A program made the translations under genes and the position numbers. The notes under the pieces were generated by a model. It was not told the DNA's origin and searched no databases. It was given only the letters and a program-made list of their open reading frames with translations. Shown piece after piece: positions 55,632 to 60,452 of a stretch of DNA of 64,000 bases (positions within the stretch are counted from its first letter, which is position 1; each line of letters starts with the position of its first letter). Source of the stretch: Paracoccaceae bacterium (GTDB lineage Bacteria; Pseudomonadota; Alphaproteobacteria; Rhodobacterales; Rhodobacteraceae); NCBI GenBank assembly GCA_965200805.1, contig OZ241384.1, positions 763,305-827,304 of the forward strand. Reading direction: 5' to 3'.

Positions 55632-57173
55632 TTATTTTGAAACATTCCAGAAGTGCGGCCAGATCAATGTTGCCTCGCCAAGCCCCTCAAGACCTGGTGA
55701 TGCGATGTTGTAGGTATAGACATCACCCGTCTTCATCGTTGGAACCTGATCATAGATCAACGCCTGAATCTCAGCCCAGATCGCCTGCCGCTCGGCTGGG
55801 TCAGAACTCTCCGTGAACCTGGCCTTCAAGGCATTCTTTTCCTCAGTTGTCCACCAACCGGGATAGTTGTCATTCATCACCGAAATCAGGATCGGGTCCG
55901 GCACAAATCCATGATGGGTGAAGAACATGTCCCATTGGTCCGGCTGTGCCCGCTTCTCAATCAGTGTGGCCCAATCATAGACCTGCAGATCAATATTGAA
56001 GCCCGCTCCTGCCAACTGTCTCGTGTAGACAATCGCCTTGTCGTAATGAAATGGGTAGTTTGTCGAGACCATGAATTTGATTGGTTCACCATCATACCCT
56101 GCTTCCTCTGCCATGCTGCGTGCAGTTTCAGTATCACCCATGCTGAAGTGCTCAGTGCCGGCATCCGAATACCAGACATTTCCATCAGGCAGGAATGAAC
56201 CGTTCGAGCGCCACAACCCCTCGGGACCGATTGCGACCTGCAGTGCGGGCACCTTGTCCAATGCGGTCTGAATTGCACGCCGAAGTCCGAAGTTGTCCTG
56301 CAACGGGCCATCCTTGGAGTTCATGAACACAAGACCAAAGATCGGGCCGCCATTCAGGATTGTCACAACCGAGGGATCGGCCTCAAGATCGGCATACAGA
56401 TCGCCTGGAATGCTTTCGGCATAGTCATAATCACCGGCCCTCAACCCCGCGACGCGTGTTCCGACATCAGGGACAGGGATAAATCGCAGTGCGTCAAACG
56501 CAGCAACACGCATGCCACCGTAGCCGTCGGCGTCACCGTCGGGTGATGCGTAGTCATCAAATCTTACCAGCTCGACATGACGATTTGGTTTCCACTCACT
56601 GAACATATAAGGTCCTGTGCCAATGTAGTTCTCCGGTGCGATTGGTTCCTTGCCAGCTCCGCCGACCACAGATTCCGGATAGATTGCCGGGCCGCCATTG
56701 ATGAAGGCAAGAAGATTTTTCCAGGGACCAAAGGGGCGGGCAAGTTTGATTGTGACTGCATGATCACCCGCAGCCGAAACGCTTTCGACATTCGAAAACA
56801 GCAGACCGCCCCGTGAACCGAATTCGCCCCATCGGTTCAGGGATGCGACAACATCCGCCGATGTCATATCCTGCCCATCGTGGAACTTCACGCCCTTTCG
56901 GAGCATGATCGTGATCGTCTTCCCGTCATCCGAGACCTCCTCGCCGGTGGCAAGCAGGCCAACGGGAGAATTCGAAGCATCAAATGTGTAGAGCCCCTCA
57001 AACATATGATGGGCAATTGTCGTCGACAGATCAGACGTGACGACTTGCTGGTCAAGAGTTGGTGGCTCGCCGACGGTTGCATAACGCAATGTCCCGGTCG
57101 CGAATGCCGCATTGGCCAGTGTGGTGAACGCTCCCAGAGCAACCACCGAGAACAAGCAGATTCTGAGGTTCAT
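55632..57173 (-). CDS. Peptide/nickel ABC transporter substrate-binding protein (family 5, DppA/OppA-like)
   Basis: Signal peptide MNLRICLFSVVALGAFTTLANA. 513 aa, and the first gene of the dpp-like operon. Confidence 0.85.
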   Translation of the reverse strand: MNLRICLFSVVALGAFTTLANAAFATGTLRYATVGEPPTLDQQVVTSDLSTTIAHHMFEGLYTFDASNSPVGLLATGEEVSDDGKTITIMLRKGVKFHDGQDMTSADVVASLNRWGEFGSRGGLLFSNVESVSAAGDHAVTIKLARPFGPWKNLLAFINGGPAIYPESVVGGAGKEPIAPENYIGTGPYMFSEWKPNRHVELVRFDDYASPDGDADGYGGMRVAAFDALRFIPVPDVGTRVAGLRAGDYDYAESIPGDLYADLEADPSVVTILNGGPIFGLVFMNSKDGPLQDNFGLRRAIQTALDKVPALQVAIGPEGLWRSNGSFLPDGNVWYSDAGTEHFSMGDTETARSMAEEAGYDGEPIKFMVSTNYPFHYDKAIVYTRQLAGAGFNIDLQVYDWATLIEKRAQPDQWDMFFTHHGFVPDPILISVMNDNYPGWWTTEEKNALKARFTESSDPAERQAIWAEIQALIYDQVPTMKTGDVYTYNIASPGLEGLGEATLIWPHFWNVSK

Positions 57174-57587
57174 AGCCCCCTCCTTGTAAGGAAATTTTGT
57201 AAGTATATTATATTAATCACAAAATATGTCAAATTTGAATCCGAATAATTCCTGTGAATTAATAGAAGAATATTTTTTATTACATGATTTTATTGTATTA
57301 TTTTACAAATAATAATTCATTTCCAAAATGTTATTTTCTTTCTTTTTATTCCAAGATACGCTGATTTGCACATTGCCATATTGCTCACGGATTGAGAACA
57401 TCATTCATCCTGTCCGCTGTGCCTGCACCGCCACCAAACCCTGTTCCTTGTTTCGCCTGTCCATGATCGGTCGGCGTGACGGATTTTTGCACCGTCAGCA
57501 TAGGGTCTTGTGGACCCGGACCATCTGGATCGGCACGCTCGGCACTGTCTCACCTTGAGACCCGCTTCCTGTCGGCCTTGGGACGGT

Positions 57588-58178
57588 TCAGCTTCGGCGC
57601 GCGGGCATCGTCAGGCCCGCGATCCATTCCATGTCATGCAACATGTCGGTCACACCGGCCACCATCGCGGCGTGCAGCGCAGGGATGCGTGGACCCGCAC
57701 GAAGTTGTAGCGGACGAAATACAGGCTGAGCATGTGGATGTGGTTCCCGATCCTCTTGCTGAACGCATTGGTCAGCCACGTGGTCAGGCTCCGGCGTTCG
57801 ACACAGCTGGTCGGGATGTGATCTTGATCCGGCTTGCCCTCAATCACACGGGGCCGTGCGCCATTGAAGGCCGAGGGGCTGCACTTGCGTTCAGGTGACT
57901 TCGGCATCTTGACCAGCATGGCATGGTCCGCGGCTTCGAGATACGCCCTGCGGCCATCGGTGGTCAACCTGACGCGGCGGGCGATGCGGTGCTCCACACT
58001 GTCCATGAAACCGGTCGCTGTCCAGGTCCAGACATCCCCGGCCTCAACCGACATTCCGGTGACGGTGTTGATCAAGACCCCGACGGTGCGGGAGATCGAC
58101 CGCATGGACATCCCCTCAACCAGGCAGGTTGAGGATCATGACGCGTTTTCCTGTGGGCAGTCTGTTCATGCCAGACAT
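57588..58178 (-). pseudogene. DDE transposase remnant (IS1-family-like; assignment tentative), frameshifted and internally deleted
   Basis: MNRLPTGKRVMILNL is followed, after a frame change, by VEGMSMRSISRTVGVLINTVT (HTH). Next come GDVWTWTA, RVRLTTDGRRAYLEA and TSCVERRSL...LTNAFSKRIGNHIHMLSLYFVRYNFVRVH. After a second frame change the sequence ends AAMVAGVTDMLHDMEWI. Large blocks expected between these motifs are absent. Confidence 0.6.
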
Positions 58179-58230
58179 GACAGGGGCTTCAACCCCCCTT
58201 GTCAAGCATGAGTTCGGTTTTATTTTTGAA

Positions 58231-58347
58231 TCAGGTGGCAAGAGGCATTCCGGGAACCCGGTCCGCAAAGTAATCGTCAATGGTGTAAATCTGGACTCGC
58301 GGAACGTCCATGAAGCGGCCGATGGTTAAATCGCCCGCCGCAGGGGA
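58231..58347 (-). pseudogene. 38-codon C-terminal gene remnant (possibly of a DNA methyltransferase)
   Basis: GC-rich frame ...DLTIGRFMDVPRVQIYTIDDYFADRVPGMPLAT-stop lies directly in frame behind the stop codon of the AT-rich small ORF. The family guess rests only on my memory of similar C-terminal tails. Confidence 0.25.
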
Positions 58348-58557
58348 TTATCCCAAAGTGGGAAACACGGAGGTTGCATCATCCTCCCGCGGATTTGGCT
58401 CTCCGATGTTCATCGGCACATAACCGACATTTGGTTCAACAAGAAAATCTTGAGAAAGAAGTTGACGCAGTGGAAGTTCACCGCGAGCGAGCAACTCACG
58501 CTCCGCCTCCATCCATTTTGCCTTATGCGAAATTGTGTCATTTTGGCTGATGATCAT
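58348..58557 (-). CDS. Hypothetical 69-aa protein, overlaps the end of the Ntn-hydrolase gene
   Basis: GAGGAAA precedes the ATG at 58557. It overlaps the upstream ORF by 20 nt. The DNA is AT-rich. No motif recognised. Confidence 0.35.
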   Translation of the reverse strand: MIISQNDTISHKAKWMEAERELLARGELPLRQLLSQDFLVEPNVGYVPMNIGEPNPREDDATSVFPTLG

Positions 58558-59256
58558 TTTCCTCATTCTCCCCGTCAGGAATCTCGACAAATGTTGTTTC
58601 CGCTCCAACTCCAGGCGCTACCTCGCTTCTTTCTTTTGCCTCATTGACTAAATCAGTCACCTCCTTCTTGCTCATCGATTTTCTGTATGAACCTTCAATC
58701 AGTGAGTACATGGCGTGAGGGGAACCGGAACCAATGCATCCGCACCCAATTGGTGCATGGTCATTGACAACACCGGGGTCAACAATCGAGTGTATCGTAT
58801 GGCGTCCGGAACTGGGACCTGCAACCAACATTTGAACCCCCAGATCAACGTTGTGCATAGCCTGATCAACCATTTGCACAATTTGAGGAGACAACCTTTG
58901 CTGCATGTCATGGTAACTGCTTAAATTCAAACCTCTCGGCTCCAATTCCTGATGCACGATTTTAGTGAGTCTGACCTTCTGGTATGCCTGTCGAACAATT
59001 TCACTAACCTTTGAAGCTGGAATATCGGCATCACACTGGGTTATTTCATCTCTAGCAACATTCAAGACTTCGTTGCCAAGCAAAACATCACCAGCAATCA
59101 TGATATGTGTCGCGTTTTTCCATCCAGAGCAATGATCTTCGTGTCTTCTTGATGCTCAAACTCATATCCAATCGGAAAATGTGCAGTGACCATCCGGTCT
59201 GACACCAAAACAGAACCTTTACCGTTCCCATAAATTGCGGCAATGCAGACAGTCAC
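58538..59256 (-). pseudogene. Proteasome-type (T1 / Ntn-hydrolase) protein, single frameshift
   Basis: GAAGGA lies 8 nt before the GTG at 59256. Thr follows the initiator directly (M-TVCIAAIYGNGKGSVLVSDRMVT). The motifs DTKIIAL and GCIGSGSPHAMYSL are present. The frame changes at the T5 (A5 on the coding strand) run 59115-59119. The joined length is ~238 aa. Confidence 0.6.
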
Positions 59257-59298
59257 AATATCAGTCCTTCTTTTTGCATTTATCGGCGGTACGGGAGG

Positions 59299-59727
59299 TC
59301 ATGGGTCCGGGTTTTGAATCTCGCAACCGAGACGAGCTGCCGGGCGATGATCGGATTTGTCTGCGCTTTCGTGCCGACCGGAAAAATCGTGGTAAGCACC
59401 ACCACAATCCGGCCAGATTGTAAAACCATAATCCCAAATACCTTCGTTTACTTCGTTAGGATCATTCCACCGCCATTCATGCTTTACCCCTTCTACTTCG
59501 TAGAGCGTTGTAACTTCCGGCAGGGCATCCGGTCCAAAGATACCTATACTAAAACCCATATCATCGTCTAAAAAATTCTTCAAATTCTTCAGCGTTGCAC
59601 TCCATCCCGCACCGCATGTCCCCTCGCAGTGCCATACGTCTATCCAATCCTGATTCTGGGTCAAGGCAGACTGCGCGTTGGCCGACACAGGAAACAAAGC
59701 GATTGTGAGAAAGAATTTGTATACCAT
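59299..59727 (-). CDS. Hypothetical secreted protein (142 aa)
   Basis: Signal-peptide-like MVYKFFLTIALFPVSANA-QS with four Cys in the mature part. It lies 42 nt upstream of the Ntn-hydrolase gene. No SD is visible. The start sits at the AT-rich/GC-rich boundary. Confidence 0.45.
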   Translation of the reverse strand: MVYKFFLTIALFPVSANAQSALTQNQDWIDVWHCEGTCGAGWSATLKNLKNFLDDDMGFSIGIFGPDALPEVTTLYEVEGVKHEWRWNDPNEVNEGIWDYGFTIWPDCGGAYHDFSGRHESADKSDHRPAARLGCEIQNPDP

Positions 59728-59962
59728 GGCGGATTGAACCGCACCAACGGGCCTTCGCTGCGACTTGCGCAATCTCGCTGTGCCGCTCGGATGTCGGGGA
59801 TGCTGCACGCCGCTTGCCACCGATCCGACAGCCGTTGGCCTTCTGCGGCTGACGGGTCTTGACAGCGGTTTCCTCAATCTCGCCAGTGGCAATCTTGGCG
59901 ACATGGACGGCGCGACCGACCACATCACCAAGGCGGTTCTGCCCTTGTGGTCCTTGGAGCAA
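59561..59962 (-). CDS. Small basic protein ending in a ...GGKRRAA...SEIA..AAKARW motif, 3' end fused by read-through into the AT-rich islet
   Basis: GAGGA lies before the TTG at 59962. The sequence QNRLGDVVGRAVHVAKIATGEIEE...IGGKRRAASPTSERHSEIAQVAAKARW looks like a complete small protein. The remaining ~50 codons overlap the secreted-protein ORF and are probably not native. Confidence 0.35.
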   Translation of the reverse strand: MLQGPQGQNRLGDVVGRAVHVAKIATGEIEETAVKTRQPQKANGCRIGGKRRAASPTSERHSEIAQVAAKARWCGSIRHGIQILSHNRFVSCVGQRAVCLDPESGLDRRMALRGDMRCGMECNAEEFEEFFRR

Positions 59963-60452
59963 AGGAGGTATCCTCAGTGTTGATCGGTCATAAAATGTGT
60001 CGTTTCAATCAAAAAATAAACAATATGTCAGAAAAATGGCGATTCGCCATCTTTTAGACTGAGATACTACCGTGCGATCAGGCTACTTGCAGCCTTGTCG
60101 TCGGAGCACTAAATGGAGGCGGACAGGGCACGATGTTTCGGATCTGCAGATCCGCCTATCAACTGGTCTTTGACATCTTGGTCTGCCACCATCAGTTACG
60201 ATCATACAAATCTTGTCAAAAAACCTTTTGGCGGTCAACACAGAATGGCAGATTCAGACAACAGTCACCCGGGTGCTTGGTCATATGGAGCCGTGTCATA
60301 TGCCGGGGCAAGCATCCCGCCGAATGACGCCTGTGACATTATCATGCGAGAACTTCGTTCGAACGCACTGGCCAATGTCAAACGCTGATCCACTCTTCAT
60401 CATCCCTCCGTATCCGCAAGAAGCACGACCTCATCAAAATCAGCAGCAGATC

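What the first reader, a model, noticed from the sequence alone, without database searches (positions are those of the whole stretch)
58348..59735. 1.4-kb AT-rich islet encoding a proteasome-type Ntn hydrolase flanked by a secreted protein and a small ORF
A sharply AT-rich segment is wedged between GC-rich gene debris. It contains three co-directional ORFs:
- A 142-aa protein with a signal-peptide-like N-terminus (MVYKFFLTIALFPVSANA) and four cysteines.
- 42 nt later, a ~238-aa protein with hallmarks of the proteasome beta/HslV (T1) fold:
  - GAAGGA-N8-GTG start;
  - Thr directly after the initiator (TVCIAAIY...);
  - an early Asp (VLVSDRM);
  - a Lys in DTKIIAL;
  - a GSGS motif (GCIGSGSPHAMYSL).
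- A 69-aa ORF overlapping its end by 20 nt.

The hydrolase frame is broken once, at an A5 run (59115-59119 on the plus strand as T5). One extra A restores ...IIALDGKNATHIMIAGDVLL.

There is no HslU, no Anbu-type ATP-grasp or transglutaminase neighbour, and no 20S alpha subunit. It does not look like any of the standard bacterial proteasome-homologue operons. The islet boundaries cut other genes: the small ARW-motif protein on one side and a 38-codon gene tail in frame with the islet's last stop codon on the other. A stand-alone, horizontally moving T1 peptidase cassette with a secreted partner is unusual.
Basis: partly seen in the sequence, partly recalled or inferred. Interest (0 to 1): 0.65.

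Follow-up and report, generated by a model that had tools for sequence, protein, structure and literature searches.

The report
Proteasome-like enzyme carried by a dead transposon
The AT-rich patch is the cargo of a decayed IS1-type jumping gene: a proteasome-like enzyme gene and a small partner gene that travel between distant bacterial phyla, and the enzyme copy here carries a real frameshift.

Summary
The three ORFs, the proteasome-type motifs and the A-run frameshift are all present. The frameshift is identical in four other assemblies, so it is a real mutation.

The repaired 239-aa protein (HYD) has a proteasome fold:
- AlphaFold2 gives pLDDT 81.
- All top PDB matches are 20S proteasome subunits.
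- Thr1, Asp, Lys and Gly-Ser-Gly are conserved.

The islet is not a stand-alone cassette. It is the cargo slot of a decayed 2.5-kb IS1-family insertion sequence at window 57541-60071, minus strand. That element has terminal inverted repeats (GGTAGTRTCTCAGTYTRAA).

Intact elements show the order ARW, HYD, SM (small partner), transposase. One Acidobacteriota genome holds three near-identical copies plus one interrupted copy, each with a different 8-bp target duplication.

The conserved partner of HYD is SM, the 55-65-aa downstream protein, found in 33 of about 46 loci. The 142-aa "secreted" ORF is an orphan.

Related elements carry other cargo in the same slot: XRE-M78 peptidases, a ClpP-like serine protease, an NYN RNase and P63C proteins.

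Function is inferred only. HYD-SM is most likely a self-contained mobile protease module regulated by SM. This is a new variant of known kinds.

The parts
60053..60071 (-). Left terminal inverted repeat of the IS1-family element (GGTAGTATCTCAGTCTAAA)
   Evidence: It is the only match in the window to the repeat consensus derived from intact copies; 0.04 matches are expected by chance. The same repeat bounds the elements in L002, L004, L006, L012, L033, L044 and L052-L055.
59747..59962 (-). ARW gene: small basic backbone protein of the element. The conserved part is listed here. The ORF has lost its normal stop and runs on to 59561.
   Evidence: It is 53% identical to the L002 ARW protein and scores 1.6e-35 against the family HMM. 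An ARW gene is present in 49 of 49 complete related elements.
59299..59727 (-). 142-aa orphan ORF with a signal-peptide-like N-terminus, lying in a roughly 0.45-kb insert between ARW and the hydrolase
   Evidence: The ORF is seen. It has no homologue other than itself. Only L001 has a diverged counterpart, 35-44% identical with a broken frame. It is absent from all other HYD-bearing elements.
58538..59256 (-). HYD: proteasome-type T1 Ntn hydrolase, here a pseudogene through a 1-nt deletion in an A-run (A6 to A5 at 59115-59119)
   Evidence: AlphaFold2 gives pLDDT 80.9. Foldseek finds 803 PDB hits at E<=1e-3, and all listed top hits are 20S subunits. The frameshift is reproduced in 4 other assemblies. 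dN/dS against L001 is 0.075.
58348..58557 (-). SM: 69-aa partner protein with an invariant W-x2-A-E-R helix motif (KWMEAERELLARG) and a variable proline-rich tail. Its start overlaps the end of HYD by 20 nt.
   Evidence: It lies directly downstream of HYD in 33 of about 46 loci. dN/dS against L001 is 0.23.
58231..58347 (-). 38-codon open stretch, in frame after the SM stop codon. It acts as a spacer between SM and the transposase and is shared only with L001. Its origin is unresolved.
   Evidence: The DNA alignment to L001 spans it. It is absent in L002 and L006, where SM abuts the transposase gene.
57612..58205 (-). Remnants of the single-ORF IS1-family DDE transposase, with several frameshifts and about 90 codons deleted
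   Evidence: tblastn hits lie in three frames and cover residues 1-287 of a 312-aa transposase in only about 590 nt. HMM score 1.7e-57.
57541..57560 (+). Degenerate right terminal inverted repeat (GGCACTGTCTCACCTTGAGA on the plus strand)
   Evidence: It differs from the 12-nt repeat core by 2 substitutions. The flanking 8-mers GATCGCAC and GAGCGTGC match at 5 of 8 positions, so the target duplication is no longer clear.

Best explanation
Window 57541-60071 (minus strand) is a dead copy of a roughly 2.3-kb IS1-family insertion sequence that carries passenger genes (a 'transporter IS', tIS).

The backbone has three parts:
- 19-20-bp terminal inverted repeats that begin GGTAGTG;
- a gene for a small basic protein of about 75 aa (ARW), which ends ...ERRSEIAxxAAxARW;
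- a single-ORF DDE transposase of about 300 aa.

Between ARW and the transposase lies a cargo slot. Here it holds a two-gene module.
- HYD is a 234-239-aa proteasome-type Ntn hydrolase without a propeptide. Its Thr1 would be exposed by removal of the initiator Met. The Asp, Lys, oxyanion Gly and Gly-Ser-Gly are conserved, and extra helices sit after helices H1/H2.
- SM is a translationally coupled 55-65-aa protein with one invariant helix motif and a variable tail.

The HYD-SM module is AT-richer than its host and about 1 kb long. It occurs either inside this insertion sequence or alone, in genomes from many phyla.

In this window the element can no longer move: the transposase is fragmented and the right end is degenerate. 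HYD has recently acquired a real 1-nt frameshift. An extra orphan 142-aa ORF was inserted between ARW and HYD.

Shown: the anatomy, the fold, the conserved residues, the mobility of intact copies, the variable cargo slot and purifying selection on HYD and SM.

Inferred: HYD-SM is a self-contained, selfish or conflict-type protease module (addiction, abortive-infection or defence-like). In this reading SM controls the Thr protease as an inhibitor, adaptor or cognate substrate. The module is cargo and not part of the transposition machinery.
For: Fold and active site:
- Sequence matches are weak but specific: Pfam Proteasome E=1e-3, NCBIfam archaeal beta subunit E=1.4e-4, family profile against PDB best at yeast beta2 E=2e-4.
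- hhalign places GSGAP on the GSGSP of Thermoplasma beta.
- AlphaFold2 gives pLDDT 80.9 and pTM 0.79.
- Foldseek finds 803 PDB hits at E<=1e-3. All listed top hits are 20S subunits, TM 0.55-0.76.
- T2, D20, K40, G56, GSG and RSEVAPGVG are conserved in 38 members.

Insertion-sequence anatomy:
- Three copies 99.96-100% identical over 2304 bp, plus one interrupted copy, lie in one Acidobacteriota genome.
- Their inverted repeats read GGTAGTGTCTCA[A/G]TTTGAA. The four 8-bp target duplications differ: CAGCAGCG, GACCTGGC, CGATATTA, AGAAAACG.
- The same repeats and the order ARW, HYD, SM, transposase occur in Alpha- and Gammaproteobacteria, Acidobacteriota and Acidimicrobiia.
- The window has the left repeat intact and the right one degenerate.
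- Transposase relatives 58-68% identical: three of the four plasmid copies examined are annotated 'IS1 family transposase'.

Cargo slot:
- 49 of 49 complete related elements have the repeats, ARW and the transposase. They measure 1.95-4.9 kb.
- Their cargo differs: P63C protein (10), a 163-aa protein plus XRE-Peptidase_M78 (9), another XRE-M78 (5), ClpP-like SDH protease (3), NYN (2).
- L048 and L051 hold a much more divergent HYD-like gene (28-31% identity) in the same slot. In L051 it is in the opposite orientation.

Independence from transposition:
- HYD-SM occurs without ARW, transposase or inverted repeats in about 19 loci, as a sharp GC dip about 1.0-1.2 kb long.
- dN/dS between the window and L001 is 0.075 for HYD and 0.23 for SM, although both transposase genes are damaged.

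No conserved ATPase or other neighbour was found.
Against: - No experiment or known family links a proteasome homologue to toxin-antitoxin or defence functions. PADLOC gave no hit for HYD, SM or the 142-aa ORF.
- In the HYD-bearing elements all four genes are co-directional and tightly packed. ARW overlaps HYD, and SM overlaps the transposase start in L002. A role in regulating transposition therefore cannot be excluded.
- HYD-SM interaction is inferred only from synteny and translational coupling.
- Some cargo types in sibling elements are unannotated, so the 'conflict module' theme rests on a subset.
- The window copy itself is non-functional.
Confidence: 0.6

Rival explanations
1. HYD-SM is part of the transposition apparatus. 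The element encodes its own protease, which controls the level or activity of the transposase or of the ARW protein, much as host Lon limits some transposases. SM would be the adaptor or inhibitor.
For: - The genes lie in line as ARW, HYD, SM, transposase, with overlapping stop and start codons.
- The association with the backbone spans HYD divergence down to 28% identity (L048).
- HYD-bearing copies are demonstrably active.
Against: - None of the 80 closest transposase relatives from metagenomes carries HYD, and the complete elements among them keep both inverted repeats.
- About 19 HYD-SM loci lack transposase, ARW and inverted repeats.
- HYD stays under purifying selection after the transposase has decayed.
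- The HYD-like gene in L051 is inverted relative to the backbone.
Confidence: 0.12
2. This is the first reader's model: a stand-alone, horizontally moving three-gene cassette (secreted 142-aa protein, T1 peptidase, small ORF) whose insertion truncated neighbouring genes.
For: - The three ORFs are co-directional and lower in GC than their surroundings.
- HYD-SM does occur as a compact solo islet in other phyla.
Against: - The 142-aa ORF has no homologue and is absent from all but one related locus.
- The 'truncated neighbours' are the conserved backbone of an insertion sequence with inverted repeats.
Confidence: 0.05
3. HYD is a housekeeping self-compartmentalising protease for protein quality control, like HslV, Anbu or BPH. 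It merely happens to lie next to an insertion sequence.
For: It has the proteasome fold and an intact catalytic set.
Against: - Distribution is sporadic: 46 loci among 185,579 species genomes.
- It is compositionally foreign in nearly every host checked.
- In 14 loci it lies inside the inverted repeats of a multicopy element.
- No unfoldase or Anbu-operon neighbour is conserved.
- The family profile finds no HslV, Anbu or BPH chain in the PDB at E<=1.
Confidence: 0.05
4. HYD is not a protease. It is a sequence-specific transpeptidase or ligase, or a processing enzyme (connectase-like), and SM, with its invariant W-x2-AER motif, is its dedicated substrate.
For: - SM has a single short invariant motif followed by a free-evolving tail, as expected of a recognition tag.
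- A precedent exists: connectase is a proteasome homologue with a specific ligase function (PMC8665760).
Against: No sequence similarity to connectase was found. No modification or product is known. This is purely an analogy.
Confidence: 0.15

Closest known systems
20S proteasome beta subunit (MEROPS family T1), archaeal type
   Same: - Same Ntn alpha-beta-beta-alpha fold.
- The nucleophile Thr sits at the mature N-terminus. The acidic residue is at the end of strand S2, Lys at the start of S3, the oxyanion Gly at the end of S4 (IAG), and Gly-Ser-Gly before H3.
- The topological assignment rests on established knowledge of the Thermoplasma beta subunit.
   Different: - There is no propeptide and no alpha-subunit partner.
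- The S2-S3 loop is longer and was modelled with low confidence.
- Extra helices (residues 112-136) follow H1/H2.
- The Asp166/Ser169 positions are replaced by an invariant S-E-V-A-P-G motif.
- The gene is carried on a mobile element together with a small partner protein.
Uncharacterised prokaryotic proteasome homologues of Fuchs, Alva and Lupas 2021 (PMC8665760). By architecture, PHI (helical insertion after H1/H2) or WPH. PPH and AAH are precedents for homologues carried on mobile elements.
   Same: - The family is about equally similar to alpha and beta subunits, as that paper describes for WPH and its group II.
- It has an insertion at the H1/H2 site and no propeptide.
- It has a wide, patchy distribution that includes an archaeon.
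- PPH and AAH show that proteasome homologues can travel on phages.
   Different: - I could not map this family to a named cluster, because their sequences and the HHpred database were not available to me.
- The paper's main text contains no word beginning 'transpos' and no 'insertion sequence', and its sections as read describe no small partner protein.
- This family is rare in viral contigs: 2 hits.
HslV, Anbu and BPH (bacterial proteasome homologues)
   Same: T1 fold and Thr1 chemistry.
   Different: - No HslU, and no conserved neighbour that could be an Anbu-type ATP-grasp or transglutaminase gene, in about 46 loci.
- The family profile finds none of these proteins in the PDB at E<=1.
- The gene is not chromosomal housekeeping.
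IS1-family insertion sequences with a single-ORF transposase and passenger genes (tIS)
   Same: - The ends begin GGTAGTG, which fits the GGnnnTG ends of IS1 (my knowledge of ISfinder).
- Target duplications are 8 bp.
- It is a DDE transposase whose close relatives NCBI names 'IS1 family transposase'.
- Insertion sequences that carry passenger genes are a recognised class (PMC7986276).
   Different: - There is no InsA/InsAB' frameshift arrangement.
- A conserved extra backbone gene (ARW) is present.
- A defined cargo slot holds alternative modules, three of them peptidases of different catalytic classes.
- I found no description of this lineage or of a proteasome-homologue cargo.
Two-gene toxin-antitoxin or abortive-infection modules, such as XRE-Peptidase_M78 (ImmA/IrrE) pairs
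   Same: - HYD-SM is a compact, AT-rich, sporadically distributed two-gene unit with overlapping genes, carried on a mobile element.
- It occupies the same slot that XRE-M78 pairs occupy in sibling elements.
   Different: - No toxicity or neutralisation has been shown.
- No PADLOC model matches.
- The enzyme class (Thr Ntn hydrolase) is, to my knowledge, not known in such systems.

Membership tests
Proteasome-type (T1) Ntn hydrolase | Four-layer alpha-beta-beta-alpha Ntn fold | tested here: met
   AlphaFold2 gives pLDDT 80.9 and pTM 0.79. Foldseek against the PDB finds 803 hits at E<=1e-3, and all listed top hits are 20S alpha or beta subunits.
Proteasome-type (T1) Ntn hydrolase | Nucleophile Thr at the mature N-terminus | tested here: met
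   The N-terminus reads M-T-[VI]-C-I-A-A, with T2 in at least 90% of 38 members and no propeptide. That Thr is exposed by removal of the initiator Met is inferred.
Proteasome-type (T1) Ntn hydrolase | Equivalents of Asp/Glu17, Lys33, Gly47 and Gly128-Ser129-Gly130 | tested here: met
   D20 is nearly invariant. K40, G56 and G176-S177-G178 are invariant. GSG was aligned to the GSG of Thermoplasma beta. D20, K40 and G56 were placed by strand topology of the model, not by a residue-level superposition.
Proteasome-type (T1) Ntn hydrolase | Peptidase activity and ring assembly | not testable with these tools
   No multimer prediction or biochemistry was available.
HslVU | Adjacent HslU AAA+ unfoldase | tested here: not met
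   The only conserved neighbours within 3.5 kb on either side in about 46 loci are SM, ARW and the transposase.
Anbu | Operon with ATP-grasp, alpha-E and transglutaminase-like genes | tested here: not met
   Neighbour clustering found no other conserved neighbour family. Neighbours listed for L001-L003 show no such domains.
IS1 family insertion sequence | DDE transposase related to IS1 InsB | tested here: inconclusive
   NF033558 transpos_IS1 gives E=1.1e-19 and 71 bits, below the cut-off of 100. Three of four plasmid relatives 58-68% identical are annotated 'IS1 family transposase'.
IS1 family insertion sequence | Terminal inverted repeats with GGnnnTG ends and 8-9-bp target duplications | tested here: met
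   The inverted repeats read GGTAGTGTCTCA[A/G]TTTGAA. Four different 8-bp duplications flank four copies. The family definition is from my knowledge of ISfinder.
IS1 family insertion sequence | InsA plus InsAB' produced by programmed -1 frameshifting | tested here: not met
   The transposase is a single ORF of about 300 aa in L002, L004, L006, L016, L048 and L052-L055. This fits the single-ORF subgroups of the family and not classical IS1.
Insertion sequence with passenger genes (tIS) | Non-transposition genes lie inside the inverted repeats and move with the element | tested here: met
   HYD and SM lie inside the repeats of three identical copies with distinct target duplications. Sibling elements carry alternative cargo.
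Type II toxin-antitoxin or abortive-infection module | One product is toxic and the cognate partner neutralises it, or the pair gives a phage-defence phenotype | not testable with these tools
   Only circumstantial evidence exists: a compact overlapping gene pair, foreign composition, carriage on a mobile element, and the same slot as XRE-M78 pairs. PADLOC gave no hit.

The most novel reading that the evidence does not exclude
HYD-SM is a previously unrecognised class of mobile, protease-based conflict module (addiction, abortive infection or anti-defence) built on a proteasome-family Thr hydrolase held in check by a mini-protein. It is spread between phyla as cargo of a large, undescribed lineage of cargo-carrying IS1-family transposons. 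The interchangeable cargo of that lineage includes three catalytic classes of peptidase.
Probability: 0.3. Interest if true: 0.75.

Novelty: new variant of a known kind. Interest (0 to 1): 0.55.

Why it matters
Proteasome homologues in bacteria are usually discussed as housekeeping or ancestral proteases. Here one family behaves as a selfish, horizontally transferred two-gene module. It is often carried inside an active insertion sequence, and it has a dedicated mini-protein partner. That gives a concrete, testable handle on what at least one of the many orphan proteasome homologues does.

The work also exposes a widespread IS1-family lineage. More than 593 transposase relatives were found in one metagenome scan. 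The lineage has a conserved small ARW protein and a defined cargo slot. This makes it a natural vehicle for small conflict or defence-type modules, and a place to look for new ones.

For this window specifically, the outcome is more ordinary. The copy is a decaying relic, with a broken hydrolase gene and a fragmented transposase.

Tried and rejected
- PADLOC models for HYD, SM and the 142-aa ORF gave no hits.
- Pfam and PDB profile searches for the ARW protein gave nothing meaningful. The only finding is that its C-terminal motif recurs at the N-terminus of PHROG 2384 and of the P63C cargo proteins.
- HYD gave no hit in 72,556 plasmids and only 2 hits in viral contigs. It is therefore not mainly a plasmid or phage gene.
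- A search for inverted repeats around solo HYD-SM loci found only chance-level matches, so these are not miniature non-autonomous elements of the same kind. Their upstream and downstream DNA shares no conserved motif, except between two close relatives.
- Natural HYD-SM fusions were sought among longer homologues. The extra length turned out to be mis-called N-termini or frameshifts.
- I tested the idea that SM is the split-off C-terminal helix seen in the wider family of about 270-aa relatives. hhalign gave probability 0.1, so the idea is rejected.
- Promoter and terminator scans and Rfam were at chance level.
- Literature searches for an IS1-family element carrying a proteasome homologue found nothing.
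- A metagenome scan seeded with the ARW alignment failed because the alignment was too divergent. It was replaced by a scan seeded with the transposase alignment.
Full report
**1. What is in the sequence**

On the minus strand of 58348-59735 there are three co-directional ORFs.
- A 142-aa ORF lies at 59299-59727. Its N-terminus MVYKFFLTIALFPVSANA looks like a Sec signal peptide, but no predictor was available to test this.
- A hydrolase reading frame (HYD) is split into 52 aa (59098-59256) and 187 aa (58538-59101).
- A small ORF (SM) lies at 58348-58557. Its conserved start overlaps the end of the hydrolase by 20 nt.

GAAGGA-N8-GTG precedes the hydrolase start.

The frame break is at GGAAAAACG (A5). 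The 96%-identical intact homologue P0001/L001 has A6 there and reads GKNATHIMIAGD.

The same A5 allele occurs, within 100%-identical DNA and beside the same RpiR/SIS neighbour gene, in four other assemblies. These are one NCBI MAG labelled Rhodobacteraceae, two ENA assemblies and one Logan assembly. The frameshift is therefore a real mutation and not a homopolymer error, although some of these assemblies may share a sample.

'Sharply AT-rich' is overstated. GC is 43-51% inside against 53-64% outside.

**2. The hydrolase is a proteasome-type Ntn hydrolase**

Sequence evidence alone is weak but specific:
- Pfam Proteasome, E=1e-3, below the gathering score.
- NCBIfam archaeal beta subunit, E=1.4e-4.
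- The family profile against the PDB scores best on yeast beta2 (2e-4), Thermoplasma alpha (1e-3) and Thermoplasma beta (9e-3). No HslV, Anbu or BPH chain appears at E<=1.

Structure evidence is stronger. An AlphaFold2 model built on 38 homologues has pLDDT 80.9 and pTM 0.79. Foldseek finds 803 PDB chains at E<=1e-3. All the listed top hits are 20S subunits, with TM 0.55-0.76.

Across the family, the invariant or nearly invariant residues are T2, D20, K40, G56, G176-S177-G178 and an RSEVAPGVG motif.

In the model these residues sit where the Thermoplasma beta subunit has its catalytic set. This comparison uses established knowledge of that enzyme.
- Thr is at the start of strand S1.
- Asp is at the end of S2.
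- Lys is at the start of S3.
- The IAG glycine is at the end of S4.

hhalign aligns the GSG motifs.

The protein has no propeptide. Extra helices (residues 112-136) follow H1/H2.

**3. The family**

A search of 5.8 billion proteins returned 290 relatives. Most are about 234 aa, and nearly all are unnamed or 'hypothetical'.

A profile search of 1.84 billion cluster representatives found 178 clusters at E<=1e-30 and 1680 at E<=1e-10. The more distant ones are mostly 262-283 aa and carry a C-terminal helical tail.

In one-genome-per-species data there are only 46 loci. They are spread over Alpha- and Gammaproteobacteria, Acidobacteriota, Dehalococcoidia/SAR202, Latescibacterota, Acidimicrobiia, Thermodesulfobacteriota, Aminicenantes, Saccharibacteria and a Lokiarchaeon. 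Identities of 50-68% between phyla indicate horizontal transfer.

**4. The real unit is an insertion sequence**

Mapping of flanking genes showed a recurrent four-gene order in 14 loci:
- a small protein of about 75 aa ending ...ERRSEIAxxAAxARW (ARW);
- HYD;
- SM, about 60 aa;
- a transposase of about 300 aa.

One Acidobacteriota MAG holds three copies that are 99.96-100% identical over 2304 bp, plus a fourth copy interrupted by another insertion. Each is bounded by the inverted repeats GGTAGTGTCTCA[A/G]TTTGAA. Each is flanked by a different 8-bp direct repeat: CAGCAGCG, GACCTGGC, CGATATTA, AGAAAACG. That is the signature of a recently active transposable element that includes HYD and SM.

The same repeats bound the elements in other phyla.

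In the window, the left repeat is intact at 60053-60071; only 0.04 matches are expected by chance. A degenerate right repeat lies at 57541-57560. The 'ARW-motif protein' (59747-59962) and the transposase fragments (57612-58205) are therefore the backbone of the same element, not genes that were cut by it.

The window transposase is badly decayed, with three frames and about 90 codons missing.

The transposase hits the IS1 NCBIfam model below its cut-off. Of the four plasmid relatives examined, 58-68% identical, three are annotated 'IS1 family transposase'. GGnnnTG ends and 8-9-bp duplications are IS1-family traits (my knowledge of ISfinder). The single-ORF transposase departs from classical IS1.

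**5. HYD-SM is cargo in a defined slot**

HYD has no match in 72,556 plasmids, yet four plasmids carry sibling elements. These have the same inverted repeats, an ARW homologue (annotated 'histone H1' in one record) and the transposase, but other genes in between. Those genes include XRE-Peptidase_M78 proteins with small partners and a ClpP-like SDH serine protease.

A metagenome scan with the transposase alignment found more than 593 relatives. None of the best 80 loci carries HYD.

All 49 complete elements (45 from metagenomes and 4 from plasmids) have the repeats, ARW and the transposase, and measure 1.95-4.9 kb. Their cargo clusters are:
- a P63C-domain protein (10 elements);
- a 163-aa protein plus XRE-M78 (9);
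- another XRE-M78 (5);
- an SDH protease (3);
- an NYN domain protein (2).

L048 and L051 carry a far more divergent HYD-like gene (28-31% identity) in the same slot. In L051 it is in the inverted orientation.

Insertion sequences that carry passenger genes are a recognised class, called tIS (PMC7986276).

**6. The conserved partner is SM, not the 142-aa ORF**

SM directly follows HYD in 33 of about 46 loci. It has an invariant W-x2-A-E-R motif within KWxEAERELAxRG, followed by a variable proline-rich tail.

The 142-aa ORF matches only itself among 5.8 billion proteins. Only L001 has a counterpart, 35-44% identical and with a broken frame. It lies in an extra insert of about 0.45 kb that removed the normal ARW stop codon.

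**7. HYD-SM also exists alone and is under selection**

In Dehalococcoidia and other lineages the pair occurs without ARW, transposase or detectable inverted repeats. There it appears as a sharp GC dip about 1.0-1.2 kb long.

In nearly all loci checked, HYD-SM has lower GC than its host flanks, by about 6-22 points.

Between the window and L001, HYD shows 33 synonymous against 10 non-synonymous differences (dN/dS 0.075). SM gives 0.23. Both transposase genes are damaged. The module was therefore maintained independently of transposition, and the window's frameshift is recent.

A rough neighbour-joining tree puts the insertion-sequence-borne HYDs in one clade. The Dehalococcoidia solo forms fall outside it. 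This suggests capture of a pre-existing module, but the tree is only tentative.

**8. Mechanism**

Shown: the anatomy, the fold, the catalytic residues, the mobility of intact copies, the cargo slot and purifying selection.

Inferred: HYD-SM is a self-contained selfish or conflict-type protease module. A Thr1 enzyme that lacks a propeptide would need some control, and SM is the obvious candidate as inhibitor, adaptor or dedicated substrate. The genes are translationally coupled, and SM has a single invariant helix.

Sibling elements fill the same slot with modules typical of toxin-antitoxin, abortive-infection or phage-related systems.

Rival readings are a regulator of transposition, a connectase-like enzyme acting on SM, and a housekeeping protease. 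They are listed separately with the tests that would refute each.

I put about 0.9 on the anatomical statement and about 0.4 on the functional one.

**9. Comparison with what is known**

Fuchs, Alva and Lupas (2021, PMC8665760) catalogued 22 new families of proteasome homologues. These include PHI, which has a helical insertion after H1/H2, and WPH, which is widespread. They showed that PPH and AAH travel on phages.

The present family resembles PHI or WPH in architecture and in being about equally similar to alpha and beta subunits.

Their main text contains no word beginning 'transpos' and no 'insertion sequence'. The sections I read describe no mini-protein partner. My literature searches found no description of this insertion-sequence lineage.

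**10. Verdict**

The finding is a decayed copy of a cargo-carrying IS1-family transposon. Its cargo is a proteasome-homologue plus mini-protein module.

The window copy itself is a relic. The module and its vehicle are, as far as I could check, undescribed, which makes this a new variant of known kinds. Interest: 0.55.

Noticed in passing
window 57200-57400: An intergenic stretch of 23.5% GC lies upstream of the ABC-transporter substrate-binding gene (55632-57173, minus strand). It is much more AT-rich than the reported islet and lies just outside the right end of the element.
   Followed up: no
window 60035-60049: The perfect hairpin ATGGCGA-A-TCGCCAT, followed by T5, sits just inside the left inverted repeat. 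It could act as a terminator that blocks read-through from outside, or as a protein-binding site. The terminator scan does not list it because its loop is shorter than 3 nt.
   Followed up: no
window 58867 (mid-HYD); L136-L138: Three short-read contigs are 100% identical to the window up to 58867 and then diverge for their last 55 nt or so (HYD fragment ...QMVGGLYRLVDRI). This suggests an assembly break, or structural heterogeneity caused by other HYD copies in the community.
   Followed up: partly
window 58231-58347: A 38-codon open stretch lies in frame after the SM stop codon (…GRFMDVPRVQIYTIDDYFADRVPGMPLAT*). It is conserved with L001 but absent from other HYD-bearing elements. Its origin is unknown.
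   Followed up: no
L034 5418-6933: The fourth copy of the Acidobacteriota element is interrupted inside HYD by an insertion of about 1.5 kb. The insertion has its own inverted ends (CTAGCAGCCCGTGGTG ... CACCACGGGCTGCTAG), so it is a second insertion sequence nested in the first.
   Followed up: no
L002 7070-7792; L016 1538-4721: Some HYD-bearing elements hold extra DNA between the left inverted repeat and ARW. In L002 it is 0.7 kb and contains a minus-strand ORF with a signal-peptide-like N-terminus (MRRVAAALLALFASVAHA). In L016 it is about 3.2 kb. Small secreted-looking ORFs therefore recur in these elements, but they are not homologous to each other.
   Followed up: no
L075 1315-2367 and related loci; PHROG 2384: The C-terminal ARW motif (GGxARAxxLTxEERxEIAxxAAxxRW) also forms the N-terminus of the 350-aa P63C-domain cargo proteins and of phage family PHROG 2384. 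It therefore seems to be a portable module.
   Followed up: partly
L052 4485-5269 (Hoeflea plasmid NZ_CP011481): This sibling element carries two further genes (60 aa and 201 aa, no Pfam match) between the transposase gene and the right inverted repeat. Cargo can therefore also sit downstream of the transposase.
   Followed up: no
L033, L035, L037, L044, L012: Several related copies are also decayed. HYD is interrupted or frameshifted in two Paracoccaceae MAGs, HYD is truncated in L037 and L044, and the transposase is interrupted in L012. Decay of these elements is common.
   Followed up: partly
record names of L136, P0080, P0122: Several hosts come from the same MAG projects. One record is named ROBB21-1_SAMN13943198_METAG, and the MCY42... 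and MCY44... accessions carry OXC, OXE and OXG locus tags. From memory, these are marine-sponge microbiome datasets. If so, cross-phylum transfer may be happening within one habitat. I did not verify this.
   Followed up: no
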